Positions 17,758 to 38,656 of a stretch of 64,000 nucleotides of DNA are shown here, piece by piece. The first letter of the stretch is position 1, and every line of letters begins with the position of its first letter. Source of the DNA: Naegleria gruberi (lineage: Eukaryota). A program made the position numbers and the translations under genes. The notes below the pieces were generated by a model. That model saw only the letters and a program-made list of their open reading frames with translations, had not been told where the DNA came from and did no database searches. The stretch lies in the NCBI GenBank assembly GCA_000004985.1, contig GG738933.1; one strand, written 5' to 3'.

Positions 17758-20700
17758 CTATTTCTCACTTCGTTTGTAAATAGGTTTTGAATCAATTTGA
17801 TAAATAAGGAAGGCTCTTCCAATAAATTTGGAAATAGCAGCTTGGATCTCTGGCCATTTCTTTAAGACGTTATGGTTGGGGATCTTATCTATATATTCAT
17901 TCTCAAAAAAGGTTATGCCTGAGTGATGGAAATATAGCACATATGAGTATTGGAAAGGAATTTCTTGGATAGGGGAGAGTGAACACTCAGGTCTATCAAG
18001 TATTTCTGTTAATCTATTTTGACAATATCTTCTTTGATTGTCTAGTCTGGGGCATTCATGTATGTAATGTTCTAAATTTGAGGGACAATTACAATCTGAG
18101 CAGGTTGGATTCAATTCATCTTTCTTCTGTGTATATTTGATATGAGAATTTGAAGCGTTTCGCCAAATTTGATATTTGGTTTTAGGTGACAGTCGTGACT
18201 TGAGGTAGGCTACATTAATTGATGACCAGCTTTGGTTTGGAATAAAGTTGGGATTACTATCAATTGCTTCGTGCATCTCCTTAAGTTGGCGATTTACAGT
18301 CATTCTTTTGCAATCAAAGATCACAATATCGTTTTTCATAAGTAAATATTGGTTGGTTAGTAAGGATTTGATATCAAAGATCTTATCTCTTTCAGTTCCA
18401 TCTTTCGCAAGGCGATCTACTATTATATTTTCCTTATCTTCATGTCCTTTAACTTTGATTATATAAACTGAAATATTCTTTTCTTTTTGGATATTGAAAA
18501 ATTCAGTTTTGAAAGGGAGAAAGTTTCCTTTGTATTTTCTGGATAGGACATCTATTGCAACTTTGCTATCTGTGTGTATTCTAGCGGTTGTTCCATTTGG
18601 AAGTAGTTTCATTGCAGTGATAATTGCTCCTATTTCTGCAACATTGTTAGAGTATTCATTATTGATACGGAGTGAAAGGCTTTTACAAGGTGATAACCTT
18701 CCACCGGATTCATATATATTAATACCCATACCTGTTTTACCTGCAAGCTTGGATCCGTCTGTATGGATAATAAAGCATCTATTGGTTTCATTCACTTTCT
18801 TTAATCTGAATTTGGTATGATTCTTTTTGAAATCTAAATTATATTTCTGAAGTATTGACATCCATTGAATGAAAATGTTATTACTATTATCATTGGTATG
18901 ACTAATTCCAAATTTAAAAGCTTTCTGAACTAACTTGTTATTGGAATTTGCTATTAAGGAGAGAGTTCTTAAATTAAGTCTGTCTGTAAATTCTTCAATT
19001 GAGGGAACACCGAGTCCACCTTCTTCTAATGGTAGGTGGAAAAAAGCTGTTTTGGTGGTTCTGTCTAGTTTTAACTTTGTTCTGAGTACATTTCTAATGC
19101 AAATATCTATTCTTGATACCAGTGATGGAGGAATGACATTAAGTTTGGATAGATGTGTAAATAAACTAATCACTTTAGCATGAAGGACTTGTCTTAAATT
19201 ATGGGGTTGAAGTTTGAGTATTGGGAAATATTTCAGTGATTCATTGAATTTAGCTATCTTGCTTTCAATATCTTCTTTGACCAATTTATCTTCCCAAGGG
19301 TAGTGTCCGAGAACTCTAAGATTTTTCTGAATGGGAATTGGCACTTGTTTGATTTTTGGTATGATTTTGCTTTTTGTGGGAAGGAGAGTGGCAATTGACT
19401 TTTTTGCATTTAATTTGAAAAGCAATTGAGATAACCAGTCGTCGATGTTATCTAGTCTTCCATTATAATTTGTGAATCTGTCGCATACTATATTCATATC
19501 GTCAGCGAAACAACAAAGACCAATTTCGTTTGCATTCAATTCAGATGGTTCTATTGGTAGTTGCCATTGGTCTATTGCTTTGTCTATTATGAGTTGTGTA
19601 ATACAATCGTAAATAAGAGGTGCTAATGGGCAACCTTGAGGAATTCCTCGTGTTTTTGTGAAGTTATTTGATAGATGTTTGTCAATTTCTAATTGTAAAC
19701 TGTGATTGCTGTATGCATTAATTATAAAATCAGTTAGTGGTGTTGGGAATTTACAATGATTAAGGGCCATCCTAATAACCGGCATCTCCACTGCGTCGTA
19801 GGCACCTTCAATGTCAAGGTTGACTAATATAAATGTTCTTCGTCTAGTTTTCAAGGCCAGGGAGGAAAGTACTATTCCATGGTTCATTGTATTTCTATTA
19901 TTTATGAAGGCCTGTTGTCTCATATTAATCTGAGAGCTAGCCCATTCACATAATTTGTGGGCGATTAAATTAAAAAGGATTCTATAAAATATTGGTAGTA
20001 TTGTGATGGGTCTAATATCTCCTAATGTTTTAACTTCTCGCTTTGGAATCAGTTTAACCCAACCGTGTTTCCATTCTTGGGGGATATCTCCTTGTGTTAA
20101 ACATTTGTTAAACTCTTCAACTATTAAAGCTAATTTCTCTAATTTTAAGCCCTTGATGATATCTAATGAAATTTCGTCTTGTCCTGGTGTATTCGATTTC
20201 ATTCTTTTAATGGTTTCTTTTACATCTCTATATGAAATCCGACCTATATCTCTAGGACCTGAAGTGATAGTGGATGGACTTGGCATAAAGGTTGGTGTTT
20301 GATTGGAGGTTGTAAACTTTTTGGAAAAATAATCTAAAATTTCTTGTTCTCCAAATGGCAATTCTTTCCAGATAATTTCTTTAGAATGCAGTTTTCTATC
20401 AAATTGATACATGTGGGAGGCGTGACTATTGTTATATTTGTCAGTTAATTGTTCTTTGATTTCTTTACATGATTGGATGTGAGTCTCTTTAAGAATTGTT
20501 TGTAGTTCTGATATTTCATCAAGTCCAACATTTGGGTCTTCTAATTTACCCATAATCTTATTTTCTAATTTACGAATTTTACCTTTAAATATGGAGGAAA
20601 TAATGCTACCACCAAGTCTGTCAACTTTGGTTCCATATTTTGCAATGTTGTTTTGTATTTCTGCATTTAATTCTTGAAATGTATTGGCATTTGACGTATT

Positions 20701-21486
20701 TATCTCTTTGATCATTTCTTCTCTTTTCTTCTTACCAATATATGATCTCCAATTTAAATGTGATTTGAATTCAATATCAATGTAAAAAGGGATGTGATCA
20801 TTACTTGTGAGCGGTGGAAGGAGTTCTTCTTTGATAACCTTAATATCTTTAGACACGAAAATGTGGTCTAATCTTGAAGTGGTGATTCTATTCTGTTGTC
20901 TTCTAATGTAAGTCTTATTATTAGTCTTATATTCTGTTAGTTGGAGTAGATTAAATAGCCAGCACCATTCTTTATCTCTACCGTTTGAAGGATTAATGGT
21001 ATTGATATTAAGATCTCCATTAATTATGACATGTTCATCTCTACATGTCAGTACTGCATTTGTTATACTGTTCATGGCTTCAACATCATTTTCTTTATCA
21101 TCAACTCTTCCACTAAGATATGGAGTGAAAATATTAATTGGTATACCTTTGCTTTCGAATCGTGTCCATTGAAGAACACCTGGAATTAGATTGATATTAG
21201 TAATATTTCTCTTGTGAGGGTTGTTAAGGAAGTGCATAACAGCCGTCCCTTTTTTTCCTTTCGTTGTATTCATTAAGGAGTTAAATAATATATAGCCTGT
21301 TCCTGAATTTTTAACTTTATATTCTAGATCAGGAGTATTTAAATGAGTTTCGGTTAACGAAATCATGTGTATTTTATGATGAAGACACATTGATTTCACT
21401 TCTGGTGTAACCGATTTCTTACTAGCATGTTTATACAGGCCGTTTACATTGTAACACGCTAGTCGTAAATTACTATAATTACTCAT
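17758..21486 (-). CDS. retrotransposon ORF2: APE-type endonuclease, reverse transcriptase, RNase H and a C-terminal Cys/His motif, 1242 aa
   Basis: N-terminal LRLACYNVNG...ISLTETHL (EEP/APE). RT motifs including FADDMNIVCD. RNase H: IIHTDGSK...AEIGAI...HTDSK...KVKGHEDKENI..D.LAK. C-terminal CSDCNCPSNLEHYIHECP. Confidence 0.9.
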   Translation of the reverse strand: MSNYSNLRLACYNVNGLYKHASKKSVTPEVKSMCLHHKIHMISLTETHLNTPDLEYKVKNSGTGYILFNSLMNTTKGKKGTAVMHFLNNPHKRNITNINLIPGVLQWTRFESKGIPINIFTPYLSGRVDDKENDVEAMNSITNAVLTCRDEHVIINGDLNINTINPSNGRDKEWCWLFNLLQLTEYKTNNKTYIRRQQNRITTSRLDHIFVSKDIKVIKEELLPPLTSNDHIPFYIDIEFKSHLNWRSYIGKKKREEMIKEINTSNANTFQELNAEIQNNIAKYGTKVDRLGGSIISSIFKGKIRKLENKIMGKLEDPNVGLDEISELQTILKETHIQSCKEIKEQLTDKYNNSHASHMYQFDRKLHSKEIIWKELPFGEQEILDYFSKKFTTSNQTPTFMPSPSTITSGPRDIGRISYRDVKETIKRMKSNTPGQDEISLDIIKGLKLEKLALIVEEFNKCLTQGDIPQEWKHGWVKLIPKREVKTLGDIRPITILPIFYRILFNLIAHKLCEWASSQINMRQQAFINNRNTMNHGIVLSSLALKTRRRTFILVNLDIEGAYDAVEMPVIRMALNHCKFPTPLTDFIINAYSNHSLQLEIDKHLSNNFTKTRGIPQGCPLAPLIYDCITQLIIDKAIDQWQLPIEPSELNANEIGLCCFADDMNIVCDRFTNYNGRLDNIDDWLSQLLFKLNAKKSIATLLPTKSKIIPKIKQVPIPIQKNLRVLGHYPWEDKLVKEDIESKIAKFNESLKYFPILKLQPHNLRQVLHAKVISLFTHLSKLNVIPPSLVSRIDICIRNVLRTKLKLDRTTKTAFFHLPLEEGGLGVPSIEEFTDRLNLRTLSLIANSNNKLVQKAFKFGISHTNDNSNNIFIQWMSILQKYNLDFKKNHTKFRLKKVNETNRCFIIHTDGSKLAGKTGMGINIYESGGRLSPCKSLSLRINNEYSNNVAEIGAIITAMKLLPNGTTARIHTDSKVAIDVLSRKYKGNFLPFKTEFFNIQKEKNISVYIIKVKGHEDKENIIVDRLAKDGTERDKIFDIKSLLTNQYLLMKNDIVIFDCKRMTVNRQLKEMHEAIDSNPNFIPNQSWSSINVAYLKSRLSPKTKYQIWRNASNSHIKYTQKKDELNPTCSDCNCPSNLEHYIHECPRLDNQRRYCQNRLTEILDRPECSLSPIQEIPFQYSYVLYFHHSGITFFENEYIDKIPNHNVLKKWPEIQAAISKFIGRAFLIYQIDSKPIYKRSEK

Positions 21487-23123
21487 TTAGAAAGAGTACA
21501 AGATGATGAGCTTTTTGATTCTTCATCATCTTGCATAATAGAATTATTAGTACTATTATTTATATAATGGGAGATTTTGTCAATAAGTTCCATTGTATCA
21601 GCTAATGCTTTCTTAAAATCACGCAGTTCAGTTTCAATATTAGATAGTCTAGTTTCAAATAGATTGGTTGTTGTATTAATAGTAGGAGTAACTACAGAAT
21701 TAGTGGTTGAACTGGTATTATCGTTAGATTGTATAGGATTGATCATAGGATTAGTTACTTCCGGTAATTTAGAGTTAGTTAGAAATGGATATTGTTTTTG
21801 TTTTCTTTCAATTATTTCATCTAATTGTTTAATAGATGGTACGAAACAGTAACTGGTTCCATCAGTAATGTTTTGTTTGGTATTGAGAACAATTTTCTTG
21901 TCAATAAATAGATTCATTTCGTCAATATTTGAATGGACGACTTTACATAATTTAAAGGTAGTGGTATTGGATTTGTTTTTGGATTCAGTTATCATGCATT
22001 GGTTAGTATTGAAATCTTTTTTAATGCGTTCGTATACACGAGTAACACCATCGATGATTTCCTTGTTTGTAAAGGTAGGTGGAAATAAACATTCTGAAAC
22101 ATTAGTAGGAGTTTCATTACGCAATTGTTCAACAGATTTGTAATTAGTTAAATTAAGCTTCTTTCTAATAACTTCGCACACATCTTCGTTTTCGTATGAA
22201 ACTCTAATTATATATTTACCATGTGATTGGTTTGTATACATTTGGGAGATAAGTATAGTATTATCGTTATTAACTGAGTGTTTGATTAGTGATTTAATCA
22301 TATCAATGTGTTGTGAATATATGTGTGTAGAGTGAGTTAGAGCGTACAAGCTATGCTCGAATACAGCAGGTGATGGGAAGAATTTCAATATTAAATCATT
22401 GTGTACACTATCAAGCATATCTTTGCAAAGAATATAATTGTCATTACTATTGCAATGAAGATTAATGACATTACTAGTTTGGGGTCTTATTTTAATGGTG
22501 GCAAATTCCCCAAAGATGTCCATAATTTGTTCCATGAATTTGTTATTAATTCTTTCATAGCAGATAATATTAAGTGAATGTGTCAAATCGAATTTCTTAT
22601 TTTGCTTGACTGGTTTTTTACCATAGAATGAAATTGAGCGTTTCATTTTGATTTGTTTTGCTATAGTTTGTTTGATACTTGGTTGAGCTTTTATAGGGTG
22701 ATACTTCACCATATCCAAATATGGAGTAAGTTGTAGTTTGGTATTTTGCTCAATAGGGTTCTTACTACATTCATATTTTGGTTTAATATTACTAGTAATG
22801 GAATGAATTTGTTGATTTCTATTTTGGGGAGTTGACTTAATATTTTGGATTTCTGAAGTAGGTTTTTTAAATGAATCAGTAGAAATGTTAGTGGTAGAAG
22901 TATCTTCTTGATTAATATTATCAACTTTAACCTTTACATCTTTGTCTTGTACAAACTCGGATTTAAACATTATTTTGTCGTAAATCTTTTGCATAGTTTC
23001 CATGTATTTTTGAAGACGAATATTTTCAATCCGATATGAATCGACTGCTTGTTCTAACACAAGAATCCTGTTAGTCAGCTGCAGACAATTTATTGGATCA
23101 GGAGGGCGGTCATGTAAAGGCAT
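21483..23123 (-). CDS. retrotransposon ORF1 protein, 546 aa, N-terminal coiled-coil-like region
   Basis: ATG at 23123. Its TGA stop overlaps the ORF2 ATG (ATGA). No CCHC knuckle recognised. Confidence 0.75.
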   Translation of the reverse strand: MPLHDRPPDPINCLQLTNRILVLEQAVDSYRIENIRLQKYMETMQKIYDKIMFKSEFVQDKDVKVKVDNINQEDTSTTNISTDSFKKPTSEIQNIKSTPQNRNQQIHSITSNIKPKYECSKNPIEQNTKLQLTPYLDMVKYHPIKAQPSIKQTIAKQIKMKRSISFYGKKPVKQNKKFDLTHSLNIICYERINNKFMEQIMDIFGEFATIKIRPQTSNVINLHCNSNDNYILCKDMLDSVHNDLILKFFPSPAVFEHSLYALTHSTHIYSQHIDMIKSLIKHSVNNDNTILISQMYTNQSHGKYIIRVSYENEDVCEVIRKKLNLTNYKSVEQLRNETPTNVSECLFPPTFTNKEIIDGVTRVYERIKKDFNTNQCMITESKNKSNTTTFKLCKVVHSNIDEMNLFIDKKIVLNTKQNITDGTSYCFVPSIKQLDEIIERKQKQYPFLTNSKLPEVTNPMINPIQSNDNTSSTTNSVVTPTINTTTNLFETRLSNIETELRDFKKALADTMELIDKISHYINNSTNNSIMQDDEESKSSSSCTLSK

Positions 23124-23999: not shown

Positions 24000-24617
24000 A
24001 TGCTTCGTTTTGCAAATCCAATAATAACAATTTCAACTCCTTCGAATTCACGAACGAATCCAGTCATTCAGTTAGCTCCTGGATCGACTCTTTCGAATAA
24101 TCAGCCGCAAATTTCTAATGAACAAATTGCCATGATCAATGCATTGGGTAATTATACAGGTGAATCTGAGGAGAAATGTCTTCGTTATTTGATCTTTTTT
24201 GGTTGGAACTTTGAGTTGGCATATAAGGCAACTGTTTTATTGAGCCAAGAGCTGTGTGAAAGAACCAAATTGTCTAATTTGTTTCTTGCGAGAAGAATTT
24301 TAGAAGAAGCACAATTTGATGTGACGTTGTGTCATCAGCGAATGGAATTAGTCTTGTATTTGATGAATAGAACTAATTTGGTTCATGTATTTGCCTATGA
24401 TTGCTTGCAACAATATCAATGGAATATCAACAGTGCTTTACAACGAGTTTTTGAGTTGGCTTCCATGAATAGATTACCTTCTCATGCATTTTCAACAATT
24501 CCTAATTTGCAAGTGCAACAACAATCGAATAACAATCAACCAGATTCTGCCAGATCACTGCTTGCTCTTCAAACTGCTTACCATAACCAATCGAGACACA
24601 ATTTATTTAAATTGTAA
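24000..24617 (+). CDS. protein with two UBA-like (TAP-C/NXF-C-like) modules, 205 aa
   Basis: ESEEKCLRYLIFFGWNFELAYKA and AYDCLQQYQWNINSALQRV resemble the ..KCLQDNNWDYTRSAQAF.. pattern of the UBA-like TAP-C fold. Confidence 0.5.
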   Translation: MLRFANPIITISTPSNSRTNPVIQLAPGSTLSNNQPQISNEQIAMINALGNYTGESEEKCLRYLIFFGWNFELAYKATVLLSQELCERTKLSNLFLARRILEEAQFDVTLCHQRMELVLYLMNRTNLVHVFAYDCLQQYQWNINSALQRVFELASMNRLPSHAFSTIPNLQVQQQSNNNQPDSARSLLALQTAYHNQSRHNLFKL

Positions 24618-27125: not shown

Positions 27126-28302
27126 TTACAAATTGAAAGATAATCTTTCCCATTCACCAACAGCACTTCTATTGACAACAATATCTCCACTTGGTTCCAC
27201 ACAAACATAGGTATTATGTTCAGATTTCAATGCAATAGCTCCATTTCCATGCAATTCAACACTAAATTGTTCCCAAGGTCCAACAGCATCACGATTAGCA
27301 ACCAACAAACCACTTGGTTCAGCACACATCAATTTACCATGAGCAGATCTGAATGCATTCTTTCCAGCTCCATGATGTTCAACAGTGAATTGTTCCCAAG
27401 GACCAACTGCATCACGATTGGCAACCATTGAATGATTTGATTCAGCACACAACAATTTACCATGATGATGTCTCAATGAAATGCTCTGATTTGGAGCCAA
27501 TGAAAATTGGAACTGTTCCCAAGGTCCCAAAGCATCTCTATTAGCAATAACTAATCCAGATGGCTCAGCACACAAGAATTTACCATGAGCTGATTTGAAT
27601 GCCACTTGATTTCCAGATTGAACCAATGAGAAAGTTTCCCACGGACCCAAAGCATCTCTATTGGCAATAATTTCACCACTTGGTTCAGCACACATGAATT
27701 TTCCATGAGCTGATTTGAATGCATAATCATTTCCAGAAATGTGAATCAAAGTCATTGCTTCCCAAGCTCCACTGGCATCACGATTGGCGACAACTTGACC
27801 ACTTGGTTCGATACAGAAGTATTTGGAATGACAAGATCTGAGATTGGCCAATAGGGAACGATGTTTGGCTGAGTGGATAGTGTAGGATCCATGTGGACCA
27901 GAATAATTGGTTCCTGGATAGGACATGCCACCTCCAGTGACGAAAAGATAGACATTGATAAAGTCGGAGAGGGAAATGGACTTGCTCTTGGCATGATCAA
28001 CGAGTTTAAATAAGAATCTAATGAAATTTTGATTATTCGAAAGTAAACTATTTCTGTACTTACTTGATTTCTTCCTTGGCGAGACCAATATCTTGAGCAG
28101 CTTTCTTCCATTCCTTCTTATTCATGGAATTGGAGTGATCCTTGTCGTATTGTTGGAAAGTAGATTGTGCTTGAGAGATGAGTTGTTGATCTTGACCATG
28201 TTGAGGCTAAAGTAGAGTAAACTAGACGAAAGTATGAGAATGCGTACTTACAATTTGGAAACCAGAAGGTGCCCATGATGGTTGTTGTCCTTGATACCAC
28301 AT
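27126..28302 (-). CDS. EF-hand protein with six tandem hisactophilin/fascin-like beta-trefoil repeats. 3 exons: 28302..about 28252, middle exon about 28205..28062, last exon about 28015..27126, separated by introns of about 45 nt
   Basis: N-terminus MWYQGQQPSWAPSGFQI. EF-hand loop YDKDHSNSMNKKEWKKAA. Six repeats of the form AFKSAHGKFMCAEPSGEIIANRDALGPWETF, similar to hisactophilin AFKSHHGHFLSAE.. and fascin trefoils. Donors GTAAGTACGC and GTAAGTACAG read on the minus strand. Confidence 0.7.
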
Positions 28303-28540: not shown

Positions 28541-31210
28541 TTAGAATTTGAATGGAACAACAGTTTTGTTACTATAAGTCTTGATAGGTAATTGAGGATA
28601 AAGTGTTAAATCTGTTGTTGAATCTCCTTCTTGTTCAATGACAAGTCGTTTAACTTTTAAAATTTTCAAATTAGTTTCCAAATCCGAAAGTGGAAATTCG
28701 TCTGATAATAGATCAAATAGTCTCTCCTTGGATATTCCTTTTTGAGTTGTTTCCTTCTTCTTAATTTTGTAAATAGTTTGAATTATTCTAGTTTCGATTA
28801 AATTTTCCACAAAATTCGAATTCCTATATTCGTAATCCAGATAGGCATCTTGATACTTTTCATAACAATTCAATCGTTTCAAACATGATAGACAGAGCGT
28901 ATTAGTACTTGGATTAAAATTATCTTTTGTAATTTCCTTATTTTCCAAATATTGAATAATAAAATGTCCATTACAATCATTAATTATTCTTTGTTTCCTT
29001 AATAGTAAAGAATTGAATGGAGAATAAAAGTAAGTAGAACAGTATTGGCAGCGTACAATGCTAAATTTGCAAACTAAATGTCCATATGAATATTTAGATT
29101 TCACAAGATTTTGATTTTCTGGTAGAATTTGAAATAAATCTGAAGGTCTTTTCATAAATTCATATTCGTCAAGTTTCAATCGTTTGAGAATATCTGCTTC
29201 TGCTTCTGCTTCTTGTTCTGGTTCAAAGTTAAGAGATTGGTTACATTTTCTGCGTGATTGTTCCTTGACAGTAAATAGAATGCCATTTGTCAAACATTTT
29301 TCCACAAATTGAAAGGAAACACTCTTCAATACGACAGGATAAAGCAAATTGGATTCATCTATATCTTTCGAATTGTAGGCGTCTGGAATATATCCTTCAT
29401 TACCCTTCACAAATAATTCAACCAATGGATTATTTCCCATTATGATACCTTCAGTTTGAATTCGGTTTGCATATTTATCAATGAGTGACTTTCGAATTCT
29501 TTCCACAATAAAATCACAATGCATTGCGTGAAAGAGAGGATGAAAGGAATCAGCAACAATGGTTAAGAAACCTCTTTTTCCATATTTCAAAGCTCTTTCG
29601 TGGTGGACTTCACTGGTTCCTCCTGATTCTCTATTGATGAAATTAATCTTATACTTGAGAGATCGCAAACATTCCAAAACTGTCAATATTCTCTCGCCAT
29701 CATACACAAGTTTACAACAATCCAAATCAAAAAATAAAAGTAACTCCTCAATGGTCTCATAGTTCAGTAATACTATTTGAATATTTGCATTTCCTTCTTG
29801 GCAAATATTAATAGAAGCTTTGGAGCTCATCATATTGTACTTTAAATGTGAGGTTTTCTCTTCCAATTTCAATAAAACTTGTTTGATTGCTTGACTGATA
29901 ACCTCTGCCGATTCTCCATTATTAATGACAAATAAATCAAAATCACTGAAACCACAACCTGTCAATGTGTGAAGTAGAGATCCTCCTGAAATGACAAAAC
30001 GTTCTCTTGTCTTGGTAGTTTTGTTATGTTCAAATGCACATTCATAGAATAAAATTCTAGCCAATTCGTAATCTTTCAAAATTTCATTCTTGAATCGATG
30101 TTGAAAATCTGAAAATGTCATTTCATATGGATTCTTGAAAAATCTCACAATTCTTTCACATTTTGTGGCATTTGGACTTGTTTCTTTATCCATATAATAA
30201 TGATAATCACGAGCACGGTTGTTAAATTCGTATGAATATTCCAACATATTTGGAAGGATTACACAATCTACTTTTGGCAACCCAGAAACCACATTATACC
30301 ATGGTTTTTTATCAAAGTTCATAAATGAGCATCTTCTCTTGACCAATTCATCGAAAGTGAGATAATAAGTGTCTGGTTGAGTAAATATTCCATAGGGAAA
30401 TACTGGAATGGCTTCTTCCTGTATTTTAATAATCTCTTCAAATTCCTTATTCGAAAAAATTTTCGCCTCCTCAATGGCCTGTGAATTGATCGCATCAATC
30501 ATTGGATCTCCCACCTTAAATGTTCTAAATTTCAAATGGTCATGAAAATACCTCACTGGCCACTTGACAGTACTCTTCATCCTAAAATATTGATCATAGG
30601 TCATCATGACATTCTCATTCGAATCCTGATGATAAACTAAACTCTCATTCCAACACGGTTCTCGTACCGTATTGGAGAATAAATCCACCAATCGATTCAC
30701 ATTCCTAATATCCCTTCTCTTATTGAGAATATCAATTCTTAATCTTTCAATACTTTCTCCATAAACTCGATCAAACAAATCATAAACTCCACGACAAGTC
30801 TGAATGAAATTAAACAATGCATACTTGTCCATATAAAACATCAAATCGAGTAGAATTTCAGATGGAAGTAATTTGATTAAATTTCGATTCGGATTTTGAA
30901 ATTCTCTCAAAACATTTTGTCCATTATTTTCAACAAGTGAATTTTCATGACGATTTCCTGACCATGAATAAATATCTCGTTGTTTTCTTCTCTTTTCGTA
31001 TCTATCACAAAAGTATGGATTTACAAGATTTTTAGAGGAAATTGATTCGGGTTGAATTTGATCGAATGTGAAAGTTGTGAATTCGTCGTTTTGGTTAGTG
31101 TCGAAACTTGGAACTAACAAGGCAACGGGTTGAGGTCCTCGAGGAGAATCGTAAAAGTTATTGGAAAGTGTGGCAGTTTCTAATAGAATATCATCCCATG
31201 ATCGTTTCAT
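28541..31210 (-). CDS. F-box protein with a Pol-beta-type nucleotidyltransferase-like core and a C-terminal Cys-rich (CxxC...CxxC) region, 889 aa
   Basis: F-box-like LPSEILLDLMFYMDKYALFNFIQTCRGVYDL. NTase signature FVISGGSLLHTLTGCGFSDFDLFVIN (GS-x11-DxD) followed by LLFFDLDCCKL. C-terminal VRCQYCSTY...LCLSCLKRLNC. Confidence 0.65.
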   Translation of the reverse strand: MKRSWDDILLETATLSNNFYDSPRGPQPVALLVPSFDTNQNDEFTTFTFDQIQPESISSKNLVNPYFCDRYEKRRKQRDIYSWSGNRHENSLVENNGQNVLREFQNPNRNLIKLLPSEILLDLMFYMDKYALFNFIQTCRGVYDLFDRVYGESIERLRIDILNKRRDIRNVNRLVDLFSNTVREPCWNESLVYHQDSNENVMMTYDQYFRMKSTVKWPVRYFHDHLKFRTFKVGDPMIDAINSQAIEEAKIFSNKEFEEIIKIQEEAIPVFPYGIFTQPDTYYLTFDELVKRRCSFMNFDKKPWYNVVSGLPKVDCVILPNMLEYSYEFNNRARDYHYYMDKETSPNATKCERIVRFFKNPYEMTFSDFQHRFKNEILKDYELARILFYECAFEHNKTTKTRERFVISGGSLLHTLTGCGFSDFDLFVINNGESAEVISQAIKQVLLKLEEKTSHLKYNMMSSKASINICQEGNANIQIVLLNYETIEELLLFFDLDCCKLVYDGERILTVLECLRSLKYKINFINRESGGTSEVHHERALKYGKRGFLTIVADSFHPLFHAMHCDFIVERIRKSLIDKYANRIQTEGIIMGNNPLVELFVKGNEGYIPDAYNSKDIDESNLLYPVVLKSVSFQFVEKCLTNGILFTVKEQSRRKCNQSLNFEPEQEAEAEADILKRLKLDEYEFMKRPSDLFQILPENQNLVKSKYSYGHLVCKFSIVRCQYCSTYFYSPFNSLLLRKQRIINDCNGHFIIQYLENKEITKDNFNPSTNTLCLSCLKRLNCYEKYQDAYLDYEYRNSNFVENLIETRIIQTIYKIKKKETTQKGISKERLFDLLSDEFPLSDLETNLKILKVKRLVIEQEGDSTTDLTLYPQLPIKTYSNKTVVPFKF

Positions 31211-33458: not shown

Positions 33459-36343
33459 ATGTCCACTAGTGATGGCATAATGTCATCATCATCATCTTCC
33501 ACTCCTAACAACAATCTTTCCCTCATCACCACAAACAACATCAACCCCAACAACAATACCATCCCTAGTACCATTTCCAATAATAACAATACCATCAATG
33601 CATCTTCTTCTTCATCTCCACTGCAATTCTCTCCTTCCAATGCTTCATCTTCATATTTCCCGCGCACTCATTCTCAAACTCTTCTTGAACAACAGCAAGA
33701 ACAATCATTAAAAAGAATACAAACGAGTGGTGTTGCTGCTACCGGGCAAGGAAATAGTAGAAATTCTTTAGAGGGTGGTGTGTTTGCCAAGACTACGAGC
33801 AATAGCAGTAGTAATAGTCTGAGTGAGCAGAGTACTATTGGAAGTTTGAGTACGAGTGGTAGTTGTTATGGAGGAAGACAATCATTGGAAGGAATTCAAT
33901 ATCAACAAACAATTATGAATAATAATAGTAATAACATGAATAATAGTGTAAATAATAATAGCAATAATAATAATATGAATATGAATAATAATTCTAGTGT
34001 GGAAGGAGAGAGAAGGTCCATCACTCTCAAAAGGCAAAATAGTAATAATAATAATAACAAGGATGATGAAAATATATCAAATTCAATTTCATTGGATAGG
34101 ATTGTTGATAATGATACTCATCATGGTCATCATCATCATGTAGATTTTCATATTGATGATGATACACATCATCATTTTGAAAATCCCTTGCTCATGATGA
34201 GTAAGATGAATTCAATGCCGAGTATTGAGAGCAATCTTTCGAGGGTAGCTTCATCAGTACCTCTCAATGCTGGATATCATTCCGACATCGATTCTGTGGA
34301 GGAACCACACAAAACAAGCCATCCTGCTCAATTCTTTGATCAACAATGTTTTATGGAATGGAAGAGTATCACCTTTCCGATGGGATCTCCAAAGCCAATT
34401 TTGAAGAATATTAATGGCTTTGTTGCTCCAGGTAAATTGACTGCAATTTTAGGACCTATGGGTATGTTTTGGGTTGTGAAAATTAATTATCAATTTATAA
34501 CAATATCAATGAATTTCAAATATTCATCACAAAAATAATTAATTACAAAGGAAGTGGAAAATCGACACTACTGAGAATTTTATCTGGACGAGGAGCTAGG
34601 ATTTATAGTGGAGATATTTATATTAATGGACAACTTGCAATGAATAGTGAGAAACAGTTCATTCGTATTGACTCTGGTCGATTCAAATCCCTAGTTTCCT
34701 TTGTGGCTAAAGATTTTACACCTTCTAACATGTCTCTAACTGTTAAGGAAATTTTACAATTTGCTGTGAGACTGAAATTGCCATCCAAATCTCAAAATCC
34801 ACTTTGGACAACAAGAGACGATCGTCTGGCATTACTATTATCGAGTTATGGATTGAGAGGTAAGGAACATAGTCTTTATTCTTCTCTCTCCTCTGGAGAA
34901 AAGAGAAGACTTACTATTGCCGTGCAGAATGTTCTCTTCCATAGAATTGTCTTGTTGGAATATCCTACAGAGTTTATGGAATTTGGTGAATCATTCCTAT
35001 TATTGAAAAGAATGAAAAAATTGGCTGATTTGGGAGTTTCTATTGTTGTATGTTTGCACAAACCTTCAGTGCAAGAGATTGAAATTTTTGATTACGTATC
35101 AATTTTGAATAAGGGAAGACAATTATATTTTGGTAGACCTACAGAGATTGTCACCTATTTTAATACAATTGGAGTGAGATTTCCTCATGATAGACAAAAC
35201 ACAATAGCAGCTGTTTTGGAGCTATTGCTGCTGAGTGACATGTACAATTCGAACAATGAGGATGATAAAAAGTATGCAATCAGACACATGACCGAAACCG
35301 AGCTAAAGAGGGTCGACACTCTCGATAAGGAGTATGAAGAAAAGCTGGATGAATATTACATCCCTCAAAAACATAGGGAAGAATTGCCATACTTACAAAA
35401 TACCATAGAATCCATTCAAACAGAAAAGTACTATTCGAACTATTGGTTTTCAATACTGATTCTGTTACAAAGAATTTACACTGTCAAGTTTAGAAATTGG
35501 AAGACTGAAATATTGTCACCATTATTGGAAAAGGTTATTATTTCAGTAGTAATTGGAATTCTCTTCCTTCAAATCGATCCAACTAATATGAGTATGAAGG
35601 GTAAAATATTCTCCTTCTTGAATTTGAATATTTCGCTCACTTTTGGTCTTGGATTGAAAACACTTGTTGGACAAATACCCAACCTAATGCAGGAACGAAA
35701 TTCGACCAGCTATCGGGTTAGTGCATTTTTTATTGCAAAATCTATTGAGGATACTATTGATTTTACCGTTTATCCAACAGTATTTGGAATTATAGTTTAT
35801 TTCATGTGTGGATTGGACTATGATCCAGGAAGAGTTTTCAGTTTCATCCTGATTTTTGCTCTGTTCAATTTGACTTCAATGAGTGTTGCTCAAGCTCTCG
35901 TCTCTCTAATTCCTGTCCCTTCATTCTTGAACTTTATTTCACCTGTAATCAGTTTGGTATTTATTCTCCTCTCTTCTGCTTATGGTATTACTAAGACTGA
36001 TTATATAACTTGGATGGGATACTTCTCGTACCTGTATTACGCTTTCAGAGCATTGGCAATCAATGAATTCAAAGGAGATATCATTGACATTCCACCAAAT
36101 CAGAATGGAACAATTATCATTCCATCAGGTCAATACACCAATGGCACTCTCTTCTTGGAAAAGGCATATGGAATTACTGAACCATACTACATGATGTGGA
36201 TTTATACAGCCATTCTCTTCTTGTACTTTATTTTTTGTAAGATATTGGCATATATTGGATTGAGATTTGTCTATGGAAAGAAATCACCCAAGAGAACATT
36301 GAAGAATATTCTCTCCCATTTCAAGACTTGTTGTAAAAAATAA
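33459..36343 (+). CDS. ABCG (White)-type half-transporter, NBD then TMD, with a long N/S/H-rich N-terminal extension. 2 exons: 33459..34461 and 34551..36343
   Basis: Walker A GPMG|SGKST is split by an 89-nt GTATGT..ACAAAG intron. ABC signature LSGGEKRRLTIA. Six hydrophobic TM segments of the ABC2 type follow. Walker B, D-loop and H-loop are degenerate (see findings). Confidence 0.85.
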
Positions 36344-36400: not shown

Positions 36401-38656
36401 ATGCAATCAGAGCCTTTAACGTATCAATTTTTTAATCAGTGCATTGATCTGCGGAGGGAGGATGATAAATTCTTCATGATTGATCTTTCCGATGCCGATA
36501 ATATTGTTAAACGATTGGTCTTTAATATTATTGACAATAATGTGGAGACTGGATATTCGGTTGAACATTTGGTGTGGGATTGGGAGAGTGATTTGATGAA
36601 TCAATTGTTGGATGGAACGAAGAGACCTATCAGAGCTTCTGCTAGGTATATAACCATGAAGAATAGATGTTGTTCTGGAGAGTATTGTCATTTCATGTGG
36701 AATGGTGTCGAAACATTTGATGAAATGTTACTTTCTCCAGTGCCAAAAGCTAATGAGAAGGGATCTGCATTTGTTGGTGATGGTGAATTATTGATGATTT
36801 CCACAAGTGAAGTTCCATTTATTGAGAGAGGAAAGAGCAAAATTTTCACAATGGAGAAATGTACTGAGGTGCCAAGTGTCACATATAACACGACTGATTT
36901 TTGCACTGTTATTACCATTCCATGCAGTAATGTTTTGGAACGAGATTATTCATTGACTGCCTTTTATGCAAGTTCAAATGTTTTTTTATTTGATTTGAAG
37001 AGTGACAAGTTTTCAACTACACCAATTCAATTCATTCATCCAGACAATTTATTTTACTTTAAAGAGGCATTTATTGAATCATGCATTGTTCCATACTTGG
37101 AGGGGAGTAGAATGAGAGTTTTTGTTTGCCAAAAAGAAAGATTATTTGAATTAGTTTGGTCTGGAGAGGAATTTAAAAGTCCACTACAAATGATTAGACA
37201 TTTAGAATTTGTCCAATCAGTGTTTTCTATTACAAGGATGGACAATATTGGTCTTTTAGTTAGATCTAAAGATATTAATCAGAAAATTCAATATCATATC
37301 TATGAACCAGAACTATACAACTCCAATCAATCTCAGAAGGAAGGTATTTGGAGATTTATCACAAATGTTGATGGAAATCTCTCCTCATATCTGTATGCTC
37401 CAAAATCAAAATCACTTGTCTATAGGAAGGGCATTGAGTATACCAAATATTTATCGTTTGAGGAAATTATGAAAATGCCTTCTAATAGAATTAGAGAAGT
37501 TTTTGATGAAGAGAATTTTGAAAAATTCAAAGAATACGATGCCTCATTTAATGTTTACACACCACGTTGTAAAAGTAAAGCCATTGAAAAGGTTACCTTT
37601 GTTAAACCAAACCAGAGAATCAATGAGGCCTATCAAATCAAATTAGAACATATAGACCATATTGAAATAGTTGCAGGAATTAATTGTAAGGAGTTTGCGG
37701 AGAAACTTGGACAATTTATTTCAAAGGACTATGTGGAATTGACTCCAACAGACTTGGCTGATTATCTTGGAGCTCCATTAGTCTACCTCCATAAATGGGG
37801 AGGAAATAATTTAAGTCATGAATACTTTATTAGAGACATGCAATATCACAAAAGAACTAGCTCAGTTATTGAGCTAGGTAAATGTTTAAATGGGGGACTA
37901 GGAGGAAGTACAACAGACATTTCAAATCTCACATTCCTTGGAATCGTACAAGGTAAGCCATTTGATAGTTCTGAGGAGGATAATGCAGTTGAAGAAGAAG
38001 AAGAAGCTGAATATCAACAATTGTTTAAAAATACGCAATTTCGAATGGAGTCCAATACAATGCTCGCTACTGATCCCTTCCTTTCGGATGGTGGCGTTTA
38101 TTTTGAAAATGTAAGGGAAGGTCTGTGGCAATGGAATACCACAAACAAGCAACAGGGTTATTGTGATGGCGGATATTTCGACCCTAATGTTACTGCTCAA
38201 TTTGTTGCTGTACACACTGATTATTTGCATCTACTCAATACATCAAATATTTGGCTAATACCCAAAGATAGAACTGAAGAGTATGGTGGTGAGTATAACA
38301 GAAATGAATACCTTAATTATGAGATGGAGGGAGGATGGTTCCAAATGAGGTTGGGTGTTTCCTCAGATTGTGCAGTTGTTGGTCTATTTGACCAAAAGTA
38401 TTTTAATGATGAGAATGTTTTACCTGCCAGTAAGGTTAGACAAAAAAGTCTTCTCGAAGCTAATTTCAAGTTATGCTATGAACCTCCATACCAAGAATAT
38501 CTCACAAAGAAAATGGAGGAAGAAGGATTTCCTGATAAAATGGAAATGCCTTATGGTATCATTACATCATCAGGTTATGGAGATGGCTATTATCCAACAT
38601 TGTTCAAAAAATCAGAGAAGGGAGATGTGATTGCTGTCAAGATATTCTTTGCTTAA
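36401..38656 (+). CDS. hypothetical protein, 751 aa; starts only 58 bp after the ABCG stop on the same strand
   Basis: accaaaATG start; long clean ORF; no recognisable domain. Confidence 0.6.
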   Translation: MQSEPLTYQFFNQCIDLRREDDKFFMIDLSDADNIVKRLVFNIIDNNVETGYSVEHLVWDWESDLMNQLLDGTKRPIRASARYITMKNRCCSGEYCHFMWNGVETFDEMLLSPVPKANEKGSAFVGDGELLMISTSEVPFIERGKSKIFTMEKCTEVPSVTYNTTDFCTVITIPCSNVLERDYSLTAFYASSNVFLFDLKSDKFSTTPIQFIHPDNLFYFKEAFIESCIVPYLEGSRMRVFVCQKERLFELVWSGEEFKSPLQMIRHLEFVQSVFSITRMDNIGLLVRSKDINQKIQYHIYEPELYNSNQSQKEGIWRFITNVDGNLSSYLYAPKSKSLVYRKGIEYTKYLSFEEIMKMPSNRIREVFDEENFEKFKEYDASFNVYTPRCKSKAIEKVTFVKPNQRINEAYQIKLEHIDHIEIVAGINCKEFAEKLGQFISKDYVELTPTDLADYLGAPLVYLHKWGGNNLSHEYFIRDMQYHKRTSSVIELGKCLNGGLGGSTTDISNLTFLGIVQGKPFDSSEEDNAVEEEEEAEYQQLFKNTQFRMESNTMLATDPFLSDGGVYFENVREGLWQWNTTNKQQGYCDGGYFDPNVTAQFVAVHTDYLHLLNTSNIWLIPKDRTEEYGGEYNRNEYLNYEMEGGWFQMRLGVSSDCAVVGLFDQKYFNDENVLPASKVRQKSLLEANFKLCYEPPYQEYLTKKMEEEGFPDKMEMPYGIITSSGYGDGYYPTLFKKSEKGDVIAVKIFFA

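What the first reader, a model, noticed from the sequence alone, without database searches (positions are those of the whole stretch)
28541..31210. F-box protein carrying a Pol-beta-type nucleotidyltransferase-like motif
The 889-aa product has an N-terminal F-box-like helix bundle (LPSEILLDLMFYMDKYALFNFIQTCRGVYDL). About 350 aa in, FVISGGSLLHTLTGCGFSDFDLFVIN matches the minimal NTase signature hG[GS]x9-13DhDh, as in Cid1/PAP/CD-NTase-like enzymes. A candidate third acidic strand (LLFFDLDCCKL) follows about 60 aa later, and a zinc-ribbon-like CxxC..CxxC sits at the C-terminus. An SCF-adaptor fused to a nucleotidyltransferase fold is an unusual architecture.
Basis: partly seen in the sequence, partly recalled or inferred. 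Interest (0 to 1): 0.5.

Follow-up and report, generated by a model that had tools for sequence, protein, structure and literature searches.

The report
F-box protein with Gad2-type nucleotidyltransferase
This amoeba (Naegleria gruberi) gene encodes a protein that joins a ubiquitin-ligase docking module (F-box) to a nucleotide-transferring enzyme domain of the same family as Gad2, a phage protein that disarms the bacterial Gabija defence and whose mechanism is still unknown.

Summary

GG409-410, D423 and D425 are kept in at least 99% of about 150 distant relatives. The domain belongs to Pfam PF26128, "Gad2". A profile comparison with phage Gad2 (Gabija anti-defence 2) gives 98.7% probability, E=3e-16.

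The proposed "third acidic strand" FDLDCC is not a strand. It aligns with motif B (RRD) of class II enzymes. The conserved Gln478 probably sits where the third carboxylate would be.

The F-box scores below the Pfam cut-off here. It is nonetheless homologous (E=1e-18) to N-terminal modules of relatives, two of which pass the cut-off. The four cysteines are conserved.

The family is large, with 1272 clusters in protists and structural matches in giant viruses. It is repeatedly fused to F-box or BTB adaptors. No member has a known biochemical activity.

The parts
28541..31210 (-). Complete single-exon CDS, 889 aa plus stop. Equals N. gruberi NAEGRDRAFT_60034.
   Evidence: ORF list. 100% identity and 100% coverage to P0001.
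30761..30871 (-). Divergent F-box, aa 114-150 (LLPSEILLDLMFYMDKYALFNFIQTCRGVYDLFDRVY). A clade-conserved helix (ERLRIDILNK) follows.
   Evidence: Pfam F-box E=0.0047, 17.2 bits, below the cut-off of 20.5. The same module in relatives gives F-box hits, and P0015 (23.5 bits) and P0020 (21.4 bits) pass the cut-off. hhalign of this module against theirs gives 99.1%, E=1e-18. UniRef names the protein 'F-box domain-containing protein'. A profile of this region found no F-box protein in PDB sequences.
30116..30613 (-). Clade-specific conserved region of unknown fold, aa 200-365. Motifs include MTYDQYF, WP..YFHD, PYG, DTYYLTFD..VKR and DYHxY.
   Evidence: Invariant columns in alignment A1. No Pfam hit. 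AF2 confidence is low here.
29441..30115 (-). Gad2-family (Pfam PF26128) Pol-beta-type nucleotidyltransferase domain, aa 366-590.
29921..29998 (-). Motif A, aa 405-430 (FVISGGSLLHTLTGCGFSDFDLFVIN). GGS sits at the strand1-helix turn and D423/D425 at the start of strand 2.
   Evidence: DSSP of the model shows E404-408, H410-417 and E423-429. Conservation: G409 92/92, G410 91/92, D423 115/116, D425 115/116, F427 112/116.
29759..29788 (-). Strand ANIQIVLLNY, aa 475-484, carrying conserved Gln478. This is the likely occupant of the third-carboxylate position.
   Evidence: Q478 is conserved in 140/143 relatives. It lies on a strand in the model. In the Pandoravirus homologue the equivalent Gln overlays the third carboxylate of a CCA-adding enzyme. 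The equivalence to Q478 is inferred from motif spacing.
29696..29740 (-). LLFFDLDCCKLVYDG, aa 491-505. This is the equivalent of class II motif B, not a third acidic strand.
   Evidence: F494 137/144, D495 142/144, D497 138/144, D504 121/144, G505 119/144. The model shows a loop and a short helix here. It aligns with RRDLTINA of E. coli CCA and with FDFTVC of Gad2. Gad2's FDFTVC in turn aligns with RRDLTIN.
29567..29605 (-). HHERALKYGKRGF, aa 536-548. A conserved basic helix that aligns with the motif D region of class II enzymes.
   Evidence: R539 140/140, K542 138/140, Y543 137/140. It aligns with LRVQKY..KGY of Gad2 and with the LRVARFAAR..LGF region of CCA.
28874..29059 (-). Conserved four-cysteine module, aa 718-779 (C721xxC724 ... 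C773xxC776). Presumed zinc site; fold not settled.
   Evidence: All four Cys are invariant in six homologues. Two CxxC pairs with variable spacing are kept in five further heterolobosean-type relatives. In the whole-protein model the first pair lies on a hairpin and the second at a helix start, at pLDDT 44-79.
28595..28813 (-). C-terminal helical region plus hairpin, aa 800-872. Possibly a winged helix. Present only in the N. gruberi paralogues.
   Evidence: The whole-protein model shows a helix-helix-helix-helix-hairpin at pLDDT 60-83. There is one weak Foldseek match to the ArsR repressor 6j05 (prob 0.99, E=0.16, 72 columns). Alignment A1 shows the region only in P0001-P0003. This is a lead, not a finding.

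Best explanation
The gene encodes a multidomain protein whose core, aa ~366-590, is a probably active Pol-beta-superfamily nucleotidyltransferase of the Gad2 family (Pfam PF26128). This family is a distant offshoot of the class II CCA-adding / poly(A) polymerase head domain.

Proposed catalytic layout:
- GG409-410, at the strand-helix turn, hold the NTP triphosphate.
- D423 and D425, on the next strand, bind the catalytic metals.
- Gln478 replaces the usual third carboxylate.
- D495, the motif B equivalent, and the R539/K542/Y543 helix line the nucleotide pocket.

By analogy with its structural neighbours, the enzyme would transfer a nucleoside monophosphate to a hydroxyl acceptor, most plausibly a nucleic-acid 3' end.

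The divergent N-terminal F-box (aa 114-150) would dock the enzyme to Skp1-Cul1. The NTase, together with the Cys4 module and the C-terminal helical domain, would then either bring a bound target to an SCF ubiquitin ligase or be controlled itself by SCF-dependent turnover.

Shown here: the fold, motif conservation, homology to Gad2, homology of the F-box module to Pfam-significant F-boxes, and recurrent fusion of this NTase to F-box and BTB adaptors. Inferred: catalysis, substrate and Skp1 binding.
For: Fold:
- The AF2 model of aa 365-600 has pLDDT 92.5.
- GGS and DxD sit at the canonical strand1-helix turn and at the start of strand 2.

Conservation:
- G409, G410, D423 and D425 are kept in at least 99% of distant relatives. 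Q478, D495, N523, R539, K542 and Y543 are kept in at least 97%, and F494 and D497 in about 95%.
- This pattern is expected of an enzyme, not a scaffold.

Family:
- The protein carries a precomputed PF26128 hit, and that family is called Gad2.
- hhalign against phage Gad2 homologues gives 98.7%, E=3.1e-16 over 143 columns.
- Gad2 against a CCA/PcnB profile gives E=4e-4, so Gad2 bridges this family to the class II enzymes.
- Gad2 is needed for phage SPbetaL7 to escape Gabija, and AF2 predicts it to be an NTase.

F-box:
- Pfam gives E=0.0047 here.
- Eleven clade members give F-box-family hits at the same N-terminal position, and two pass the cut-off.
- hhalign of this module against theirs gives E=1e-18.

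Architecture: among 147 family representatives, 29 carry BTB_2 and 5 carry an F-box, both cullin-ligase adaptor modules. Giant-virus structural matches include BTB fusions.
Against: - No member of the family, Gad2 included, has a demonstrated biochemical activity. A February 2026 review lists Gad2's mechanism as unresolved.
- The canonical third carboxylate is probably absent, with Ser463 and Gln478 at the candidate positions.
- Class II motifs B (RRD) and D (EDxxR) are not kept.
- Direct profile comparison with CCA/PcnB is not significant (E=0.035-0.058, probability ~1%).
- The F-box scores below Pfam's cut-off in this protein, has Val/Tyr where the usual Trp falls on my by-eye match to the F-box consensus, and its profile finds no F-box protein among PDB sequences.
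- The whole-protein model is poor (pLDDT 42), so domain packing is unknown.
- SDR (short-chain dehydrogenase) fusions in 21 relatives hint that some members act on small molecules rather than nucleic acids.
- I could not read model coordinates, so the active-site geometry was not measured.
Confidence: 0.6

Rival explanations
1. The NTase fold is a catalytically dead scaffold, as in NF45/NF90 DZF domains or MiD49/51. It would serve only as the substrate-recognition domain of an F-box protein.
Against: GG and DxD are kept in at least 99% of relatives across a family spanning protists, phage and (by structural match) giant viruses. By my recollection, known pseudo-NTases have lost these residues. 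By the cited preprint's account, class II CCA-adding enzymes work with only the two motif A carboxylates.
Confidence: 0.12
2. It is a signalling-nucleotide synthase of the cGAS / CD-NTase / OAS (Mab21-like) kind. It would make a cyclic or linear oligonucleotide messenger.
Confidence: 0.08
3. It nucleotidylates a small molecule or a protein side chain, in the manner of aminoglycoside/lincosamide NTases or adenylylating enzymes, rather than a nucleic-acid end.
Confidence: 0.2
4. The motif is a chance match in an otherwise unrelated protein.
For: The relaxed motif occurs in 1.7% of shuffled versions of the protein, and the strict motif is not literally met.
Against: High-confidence NTase fold. 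Near-invariant motif residues in relatives. Significant homology to Gad2.
Confidence: 0.01

Closest known systems
Phage Gad2 (Gabija anti-defence 2), Pfam PF26128
   Same: The NTase domains are homologous: hhalign 98.7%, E=3.1e-16 over 143 columns, and a precomputed PF26128 hit. The motif order is shared: AGG, DxDxF/Y, Q-x-I strand, FD-x-(T/D)-x-C, then R..KY..(K/R)G(F/Y).
   Different: Gad2 was reported almost only in phages and prophages, as a ~400-aa protein with no F-box, and it counters the bacterial Gabija system. This protein is eukaryotic. It carries an F-box, a Cys4 module and other C-terminal domains, has FDLDCC where Gad2 has FDFTVC, and shares only ~17% identity with Gad2. I know of no Gabija system in eukaryotes (background knowledge, not checked here). 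Gad2's own mechanism is unknown.
Pandoravirus 'cluster 7' BTB-nucleotidyltransferase proteins (A0A2U7UAG2; bioRxiv 10.1101/2023.12.02.569716)
   Same: A cullin-ligase adaptor module precedes a class II-like NTase with conserved motif A. The third carboxylate is replaced by a conserved Gln, RRD is replaced by xFD, and a conserved basic pair lies downstream. The spacings Q->FD (16) and basic pair (3) are the same as here. Pandoravirus BTB proteins are structural hits of my model.
   Different: The adaptor there is BTB (Cul3-type), not F-box (Cul1-type), and the proteins are viral, not cellular. The preprint proposes tRNA maturation and does not mention Gad2 or eukaryotic homologues. I inferred that the families are the same from motifs and structural hits. 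I did not test it by direct sequence alignment.
Class II nucleotidyltransferases: CCA-adding enzymes and bacterial poly(A) polymerase I (Pfam PolyA_pol PF01743)
   Different: RRD and EDxxR are not kept, and there is no GGxVRD. No body or tail domains are detected. Sequence-profile similarity is not significant (E=0.035-0.058). Pfam PolyA_pol matches 1 of 45 family members at E=0.12.
TENT5 / FAM46 non-canonical poly(A) polymerases
   Different: No sequence-level relationship was detected. Sequence searches of the PDB returned no TENT5 chain, and the Pfam tables list no FAM46 family. The domain contexts differ.
Cid1 / canonical PAP / cGAS-CD-NTase-OAS
   Same: Same Pol-beta superfamily fold and the same G[GS]...DxD logic.

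Membership tests
Pol-beta nucleotidyltransferase superfamily | Alpha-beta-alpha-beta-alpha-beta core with a mixed sheet | tested here: met
Pol-beta nucleotidyltransferase superfamily | hG[GS]x9-13Dh[DE]h, with G[GS] at the strand1-helix turn and the two carboxylates on strand 2 | tested here: met
   GGS409-411, then 11 residues, then D423-F-D425-L. The positions in the model are canonical. Conservation is at least 99%. The leading 'h' is Ser/Gly in this protein and Ala in most relatives.
Pol-beta nucleotidyltransferase superfamily | Third catalytic carboxylate on a neighbouring strand | tested here: inconclusive
   No conserved acidic residue lies on the strands after helix 3. S463 (S/T in 77 of 117 relatives) and Q478 (140/143) are the candidates, and they match T461/Q508 of the Pandoravirus homologue. 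D495/D497 lie in a loop and align with motif B. Model coordinates could not be inspected, so distances were not measured.
Gad2 family (Pfam PF26128) | Significant match to the family profile | tested here: met
   All six close homologues, this protein included, carry a precomputed PF26128.2 hit. The short name is Gad2. My own hhalign against nine Gad2 homologues from the original paper's Supplementary Table 10 gives 98.7%, E=3.1e-16. The local Pfam copy lacks this model, since genuine Gad2 proteins get no hit. That explains the empty result.
Gad2 family (Pfam PF26128) | Anti-Gabija function in a phage context | not testable with these tools
   The protein is from a eukaryote, and this function is not expected to carry over. 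PADLOC models give no hit to this protein.
Class II CCA-adding enzyme / PAP I (PF01743) | Head-domain fold | tested here: met
Class II CCA-adding enzyme / PAP I (PF01743) | Motif B (RRD) and motif D (EDxxR) | tested here: not met
   The aligned positions read F-F-D-L-D and H-E-R-A-L-K-Y in this protein. The family consensus is GFDLDCC and Y-E-x-R-L-x-K-Y.
Class II CCA-adding enzyme / PAP I (PF01743) | Significant sequence-profile match | tested here: not met
   Pfam PolyA_pol matches 1 of 45 members at E=0.12. A PDB profile search gives CCA enzymes at E=0.063. hhalign gives E=0.035/0.058, probability ~1%. The link is indirect, through Gad2 at E=4e-4.
F-box proteins (SCF substrate adaptors) | Match to F-box profiles (PF00646 / PF12937) | tested here: inconclusive
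   This protein gives E=0.0047, 17.2 bits, against a cut-off of 20.5. Relatives P0015 (23.5 bits) and P0020 (21.4 bits) pass at the homologous position, and seven others give E of 0.001-0.07. The modules are homologous, hhalign E=1e-18. A profile search of PDB sequences found no F-box protein.
F-box proteins (SCF substrate adaptors) | Binding to Skp1 | not testable with these tools
cGAS / CD-NTase / OAS (Mab21-like) | Closest fold and sequence match to these enzymes | tested here: not met
Zinc ribbon / zinc finger | Four conserved metal ligands in two CxxC knuckles | tested here: met
   C721, C724, C773 and C776 are invariant in six homologues. Two CxxC pairs are kept in five further relatives despite variable spacing.
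Zinc ribbon / zinc finger | Zinc-ribbon fold (two hairpin knuckles) | tested here: inconclusive
   In the whole-protein model the first pair is on a hairpin and the second at the start of a helix, which looks more like a treble clef. Confidence is only 44-79. No Pfam hit.

The most novel reading that the evidence does not exclude
Gad2-type nucleotidyltransferases are not just a phage anti-Gabija device. They would be an old, widespread conflict enzyme that protists and giant viruses have wired many times to cullin-RING ubiquitin ligases, through F-box adaptors in Heterolobosea and BTB adaptors in giant viruses and other protists. In these fusions, nucleotidylation of a target (a nucleic-acid end or a protein) and its ubiquitination would be mechanistically coupled. 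This would define a new type of eukaryotic immune or counter-immune effector. It would also give a tractable eukaryotic handle on the unknown chemistry of Gad2.
Probability: 0.12. Interest if true: 0.8.

Novelty: new variant of a known kind. Interest (0 to 1): 0.5.

Why it matters
Gad2 is one of the few phage anti-defence proteins predicted to be an enzyme, and its mechanism is still unknown. Its original description reported homologues almost only in phages and prophages.

This work shows that the same NTase domain forms a large family in free-living protists. A profile built from the Naegleria clade finds 1272 clusters at 50% identity. Named members come from Naegleria, Willaertia, Acrasis, Vannella, Soliformovum and a dinoflagellate. 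Giant-virus proteins match it structurally.

About a quarter of the closest representatives fuse the domain to cullin-ligase adaptor modules, either F-box or BTB. This suggests that a nucleotidyl-transfer reaction is linked to ubiquitin ligases in host-virus conflict or regulation in eukaryotes.

It also offers many natural variants and domain contexts from which to deduce the substrate of the Gad2 fold. I found no paper that describes the F-box version or the link between eukaryotic proteins and Gad2. The link is visible only as an automatic Pfam assignment.

Tried and rejected
- **Local Pfam, NCBIfam and PADLOC scans of the protein.** They gave only a weak F-box hit and a probably spurious TIGR02088 hit. 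The local Pfam and NCBIfam copies lack a Gad2 model, because genuine Gad2 proteins also get no hit.
- **Whole-protein AF2 with a six-sequence alignment.** It gave pLDDT 42. It was usable only for secondary structure and, cautiously, for the C-terminal third. Its Foldseek search gave only weak NTase hits and one ArsR-like hit.
- **Sequence searches of the PDB.** phmmer with the whole protein found nothing. A profile search gave only sub-threshold CCA-enzyme and CD-NTase hits.
- **hhalign of the family against E. coli CCA alone, and against a CCA+PcnB profile.** Neither was significant. The CCA homologues I retrieved were all at least 71% identical, so that profile was shallow.
- **tblastn against phage genomes.** I used the whole protein, the core domain and a short family member. 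Nothing relevant was found. The Gad2 link is too distant for BLAST.
- **The search for homologous proteins with the family alignment.** It returned only 4 hits.
- **The look-up of encoding contigs for the protein itself.** Nothing is on record.
- **The afdb50 fold library.** Not installed.
- **F-box region profile against PDB sequences.** No F-box protein was found.
- **Literature searches.** PF26128, the locus tag, F-box+NTase+Naegleria and mimivirus R883 gave nothing relevant.
- **Considered and rejected.** A giant-virus origin for the window, suggested at first by dense intron-poor ORFs and 31-38% GC. The window is the N. gruberi nuclear genome.
Full report
**1. The observation**

The window holds an 889-aa ATG-to-stop ORF at 28541..31210 on the minus strand. 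It is 100% identical over its full length to the Naegleria gruberi protein NAEGRDRAFT_60034, which UniRef calls 'F-box domain-containing protein'. The window is therefore N. gruberi nuclear DNA and the ORF equals the annotated gene.

- the F-box-like stretch starts at aa 115;
- FVISGGSLLHTLTGCGFSDFDLFVIN starts at aa 405, not at about 350;
- LLFFDLDCCKL starts at aa 491;
- the CxxC pairs lie at 721 and 773.

The strict NTase pattern with a hydrophobic residue before G[GS] is not literally met. The relaxed pattern is met, but it also appears in 1.7% of shuffles of the protein. The motif alone would therefore prove little.

**2. Homologues and conservation**

A word-indexed search found five close relatives. 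They are two N. gruberi paralogues, N. lovaniensis, N. fowleri and one metagenomic protein. All carry a precomputed Pfam hit to PF26128. GGS409-411, D423, D425, D495, D497 and all four cysteines are invariant among the six.

An exhaustive profile search of 1.84 billion cluster representatives found 1272 proteins at E<=0.001, and 97 at E<=1e-10. The shared region is aa ~403-545. Conservation in 148 relatives outside the Naegleria clade:

| Residue | Kept |
|---|---|
| G409 | 92/92 |
| G410 | 91/92 |
| D423 | 115/116 |
| D425 | 115/116 |
| F427 | 112/116 |
| Q478 | 140/143 |
| F494 | 137/144 |
| D495 | 142/144 |
| D497 | 138/144 |
| N523 | 139/143 |
| R539 | 140/140 |
| K542 | 138/140 |
| Y543 | 137/140 |

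Named members come from Naegleria, Willaertia, Acrasis, Vannella, Soliformovum and the dinoflagellate Durusdinium.

**3. Fold**

The whole protein modelled poorly with only six sequences (pLDDT 42). Residues 365-600 with a 45-sequence alignment (A2) gave pLDDT 92.5 and pTM 0.86.

The secondary structure is the canonical NTase core. A helix is followed by strand 404-408, then the GGS turn, helix 410-417 and strand 423-429, which carries DxD. Helix 435-452 and three further strands follow.

The nearest relatives are class II enzymes and TENT5, not Cid1 or cGAS.

Sequence-level hints agree but are weak. A PDB profile search put human CCA-adding enzyme first (E=0.063). Seven of 45 family members gave sub-threshold NTP_transf_2 hits.

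**4. Which family: Gad2**

The local Pfam copy gave no hit to PF26128. A context look-up for a homologue printed the family's short name, 'Gad2'.

Gad2 is Gabija anti-defence 2 (bioRxiv 10.1101/2023.05.01.538930):
- Knocking it out of Bacillus phage SPbetaL7 makes the phage sensitive to Gabija.
- A Brevibacillus prophage homologue blocks Gabija.
- The SPbetaL7 copy is toxic when expressed in bacteria.
- AlphaFold predicts an NTase domain.
- Its 170 homologues were 'almost always' in phages and prophages.

A February 2026 review still lists its mechanism as unknown.

I took nine Gad2 homologues from that paper's Supplementary Table 10 and aligned their N-terminal domains (A7). I then compared profiles:

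| Comparison | Result |
|---|---|
| A2 (this family) vs A7 (Gad2) | 98.7%, E=3.1e-16, 143 columns |
| A2 vs CCA+PcnB profile | E=0.058 |
| A7 (Gad2) vs CCA+PcnB profile | E=4e-4 |

The Naegleria domain is thus a true, if distant (~17% identity), member of the Gad2 family. Gad2 in turn links the family to class II enzymes.

The motifs line up as follows:

| This family | Gad2 | CCA-adding enzyme |
|---|---|---|
| AGG | AGG | GGxVRD |
| DxDxF | DxDxY/F | DxD |
| Q-I-I | Q-x-I | no clear counterpart |
| GFDLDCC | FDFT(V/I)(C/N) | RRDFTINA |
| R..KY..RGF | R..KY..KGY | LRxxRFxx..LGF |

Genuine Gad2 sequences get no hit in the local Pfam or NCBIfam libraries. This explains the null result.

**5. 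The 'third acidic strand'**

In the model, F494-D495-L496 are coil and D497-C499 form a short helix after helix 487-493. This is not a strand. In every profile alignment the segment pairs with motif B of class II enzymes.

A 2023 preprint on Pandoravirus BTB-NTase proteins (10.1101/2023.12.02.569716) reports the same pattern:
- motif A is conserved;
- no third carboxylate is present;
- a conserved Thr aligns with the third-carboxylate position and a conserved Gln overlays it;
- RRD is replaced by DFD;
- two conserved basic residues lie downstream.

The spacings match ours. Q to FD is 16 residues in both, and the basic pair is 3 apart in both. On that basis I equate S463, Q478, F494-D495 and R539/K542 with their T461, Q508, F524-D525 and R565/R568. 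This equivalence is inferred, not aligned directly. Pandoravirus BTB proteins are, however, among the structural hits of my model in BFVD.

**6. F-box**

Pfam gives F-box E=0.0047 (17.2 bits, cut-off 20.5) at aa 114-149. A profile of this region found no F-box protein in PDB sequences.

The same N-terminal module, LPxE(I/L/V)(I/L)..I followed by IRLxYLN, is present in most close relatives. Their Pfam F-box-family hits at that position are:
- P0015, 23.5 bits, and P0020, 21.4 bits, both above the cut-off;
- P0005, P0011, P0127, P0010, P0024, P0060, P0004 and P0021, with E from 0.001 to 0.07.

hhalign of the Naegleria-clade module (A4) against theirs (A8) gives 99.1%, E=1e-18. I conclude that this is a real but divergent F-box. 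Skp1 binding is untested.

**7. Other parts**

- The four cysteines are conserved as two CxxC pairs in all eleven heterolobosean-type relatives examined (six, five more). In five of those relatives a short-chain dehydrogenase follows directly.
- In the low-confidence model the first pair sits on a hairpin and the second at a helix start. 'Zinc-binding' is well supported. 'Zinc ribbon' is not settled.
- The last ~90 residues, found only in N. gruberi paralogues, look like a winged helix. The evidence is the secondary structure and one weak ArsR match.
- Residues 200-365 are conserved only within the clade and have no recognisable fold.

**8. Architectures in the family**

Among 147 representatives:
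- 29 have BTB_2;
- 21 have a short-chain dehydrogenase;
- 5 have an F-box at E<=0.001, the best being 6.2e-9;
- 4 have ankyrin repeats;
- single members have PARP+WGR, a ResIII helicase or WD40 repeats.

Giant-virus structural matches carry ankyrin, BTB and VWFA domains. One N. gruberi paralogue adds RGS and START domains. The NTase is thus a mobile module, joined again and again to cullin-ligase adaptors.

**9. Mechanism**

The best-supported reading is an active NTase tethered to SCF. The strict retention of GG and DxD across phage and protist sequences, and probably giant-virus ones, argues for catalysis. The closest folds add nucleotides to RNA 3' ends. The Cys4 and winged-helix-like parts would fit nucleic-acid binding.

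What remains inferred is the activity itself, the acceptor and the SCF link. The rivals are set out separately:
- a dead scaffold;
- a cGAS-like messenger synthase;
- a small-molecule or protein nucleotidyltransferase, the last supported by the dehydrogenase fusions.

**10. Novelty**

The protein is in public databases as hypothetical, and Pfam assigns its core to Gad2 automatically. A preprint has described the BTB-fused viral version as a class II-like NTase.

I found no paper that notes any of the following:
- the F-box version;
- the large protist branch of the family;
- the link between these eukaryotic or giant-virus proteins and Gad2.

I rate it a new variant of a known kind, of moderate interest.

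Noticed in passing
window 17758-21486 (-) and 21483-23123 (-): A 1242-aa ORF carries endonuclease/exonuclease/phosphatase, reverse transcriptase and RNase H domains. It is a non-LTR (LINE-like) retrotransposon. A 546-aa ORF with no Pfam hit lies directly upstream and overlaps it by 4 nt, so it may be the element's ORF1.
   Followed up: partly
window 27126-28088 (-): The gene next to the target encodes a 320-aa protein made of repeated FRG1/fascin-like beta-trefoil units (FRG1 E=3.7e-33 in 4 stretches; Fascin E=7.6e-25).
   Followed up: no
window 24000-24617 (+), 34640-36343 (+), 36401-38656 (+): Other neighbours are a small protein with a TAP_C/UBA-like domain, an ABC-2 type transporter, and a 751-aa protein ending in DUF4241. 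None has an evident link to the target gene.
   Followed up: no
paralogue P0003 (N. gruberi, 1374 aa): This paralogue has the same F-box-like start and Gad2-type NTase core. It then adds an RGS domain (E=3.6e-9) and a START-like domain (E=2.6e-4, just under the cut-off) at the C-terminus.
   Followed up: no
relatives P0010, P0011, P0014, P0018, P0021, P0027, P0039 and others: Many relatives place a short-chain dehydrogenase/reductase right after the Cys4 module. Named ones come from Willaertia, Naegleria, Acrasis and Vannella. In all, 21 of 147 representatives have one. This hints at small-molecule chemistry in that branch.
   Followed up: partly
family representatives P0091-P0153: Single family members combine the NTase with a PARP catalytic domain plus WGR and PARP_reg, with a ResIII helicase, with WD40 propellers or with DUF1604. 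I did not work out which proteins these are.
   Followed up: no
phage Gad2 homologues (alignment A7): In Gad2 of Enterobacteria phage 4MG and Klebsiella virus KpS8 the motif reads KFD(F/Y)TINMGA. This is almost the class II CCA-enzyme motif B, RRDFTINA. The eukaryotic branch has GFDLDCC. Gad2 therefore looks like a sequence intermediate between the two.
   Followed up: partly
window 29552-29924 (aa 429-553 of the protein): NCBIfam TIGR02088 (isopropylmalate/isohomocitrate dehydrogenase) gives a repeatable weak hit. E is 0.014 for the whole protein and 0.0012 for the core, at 15-18 bits against a cut-off of 410. It is most likely chance.
   Followed up: no
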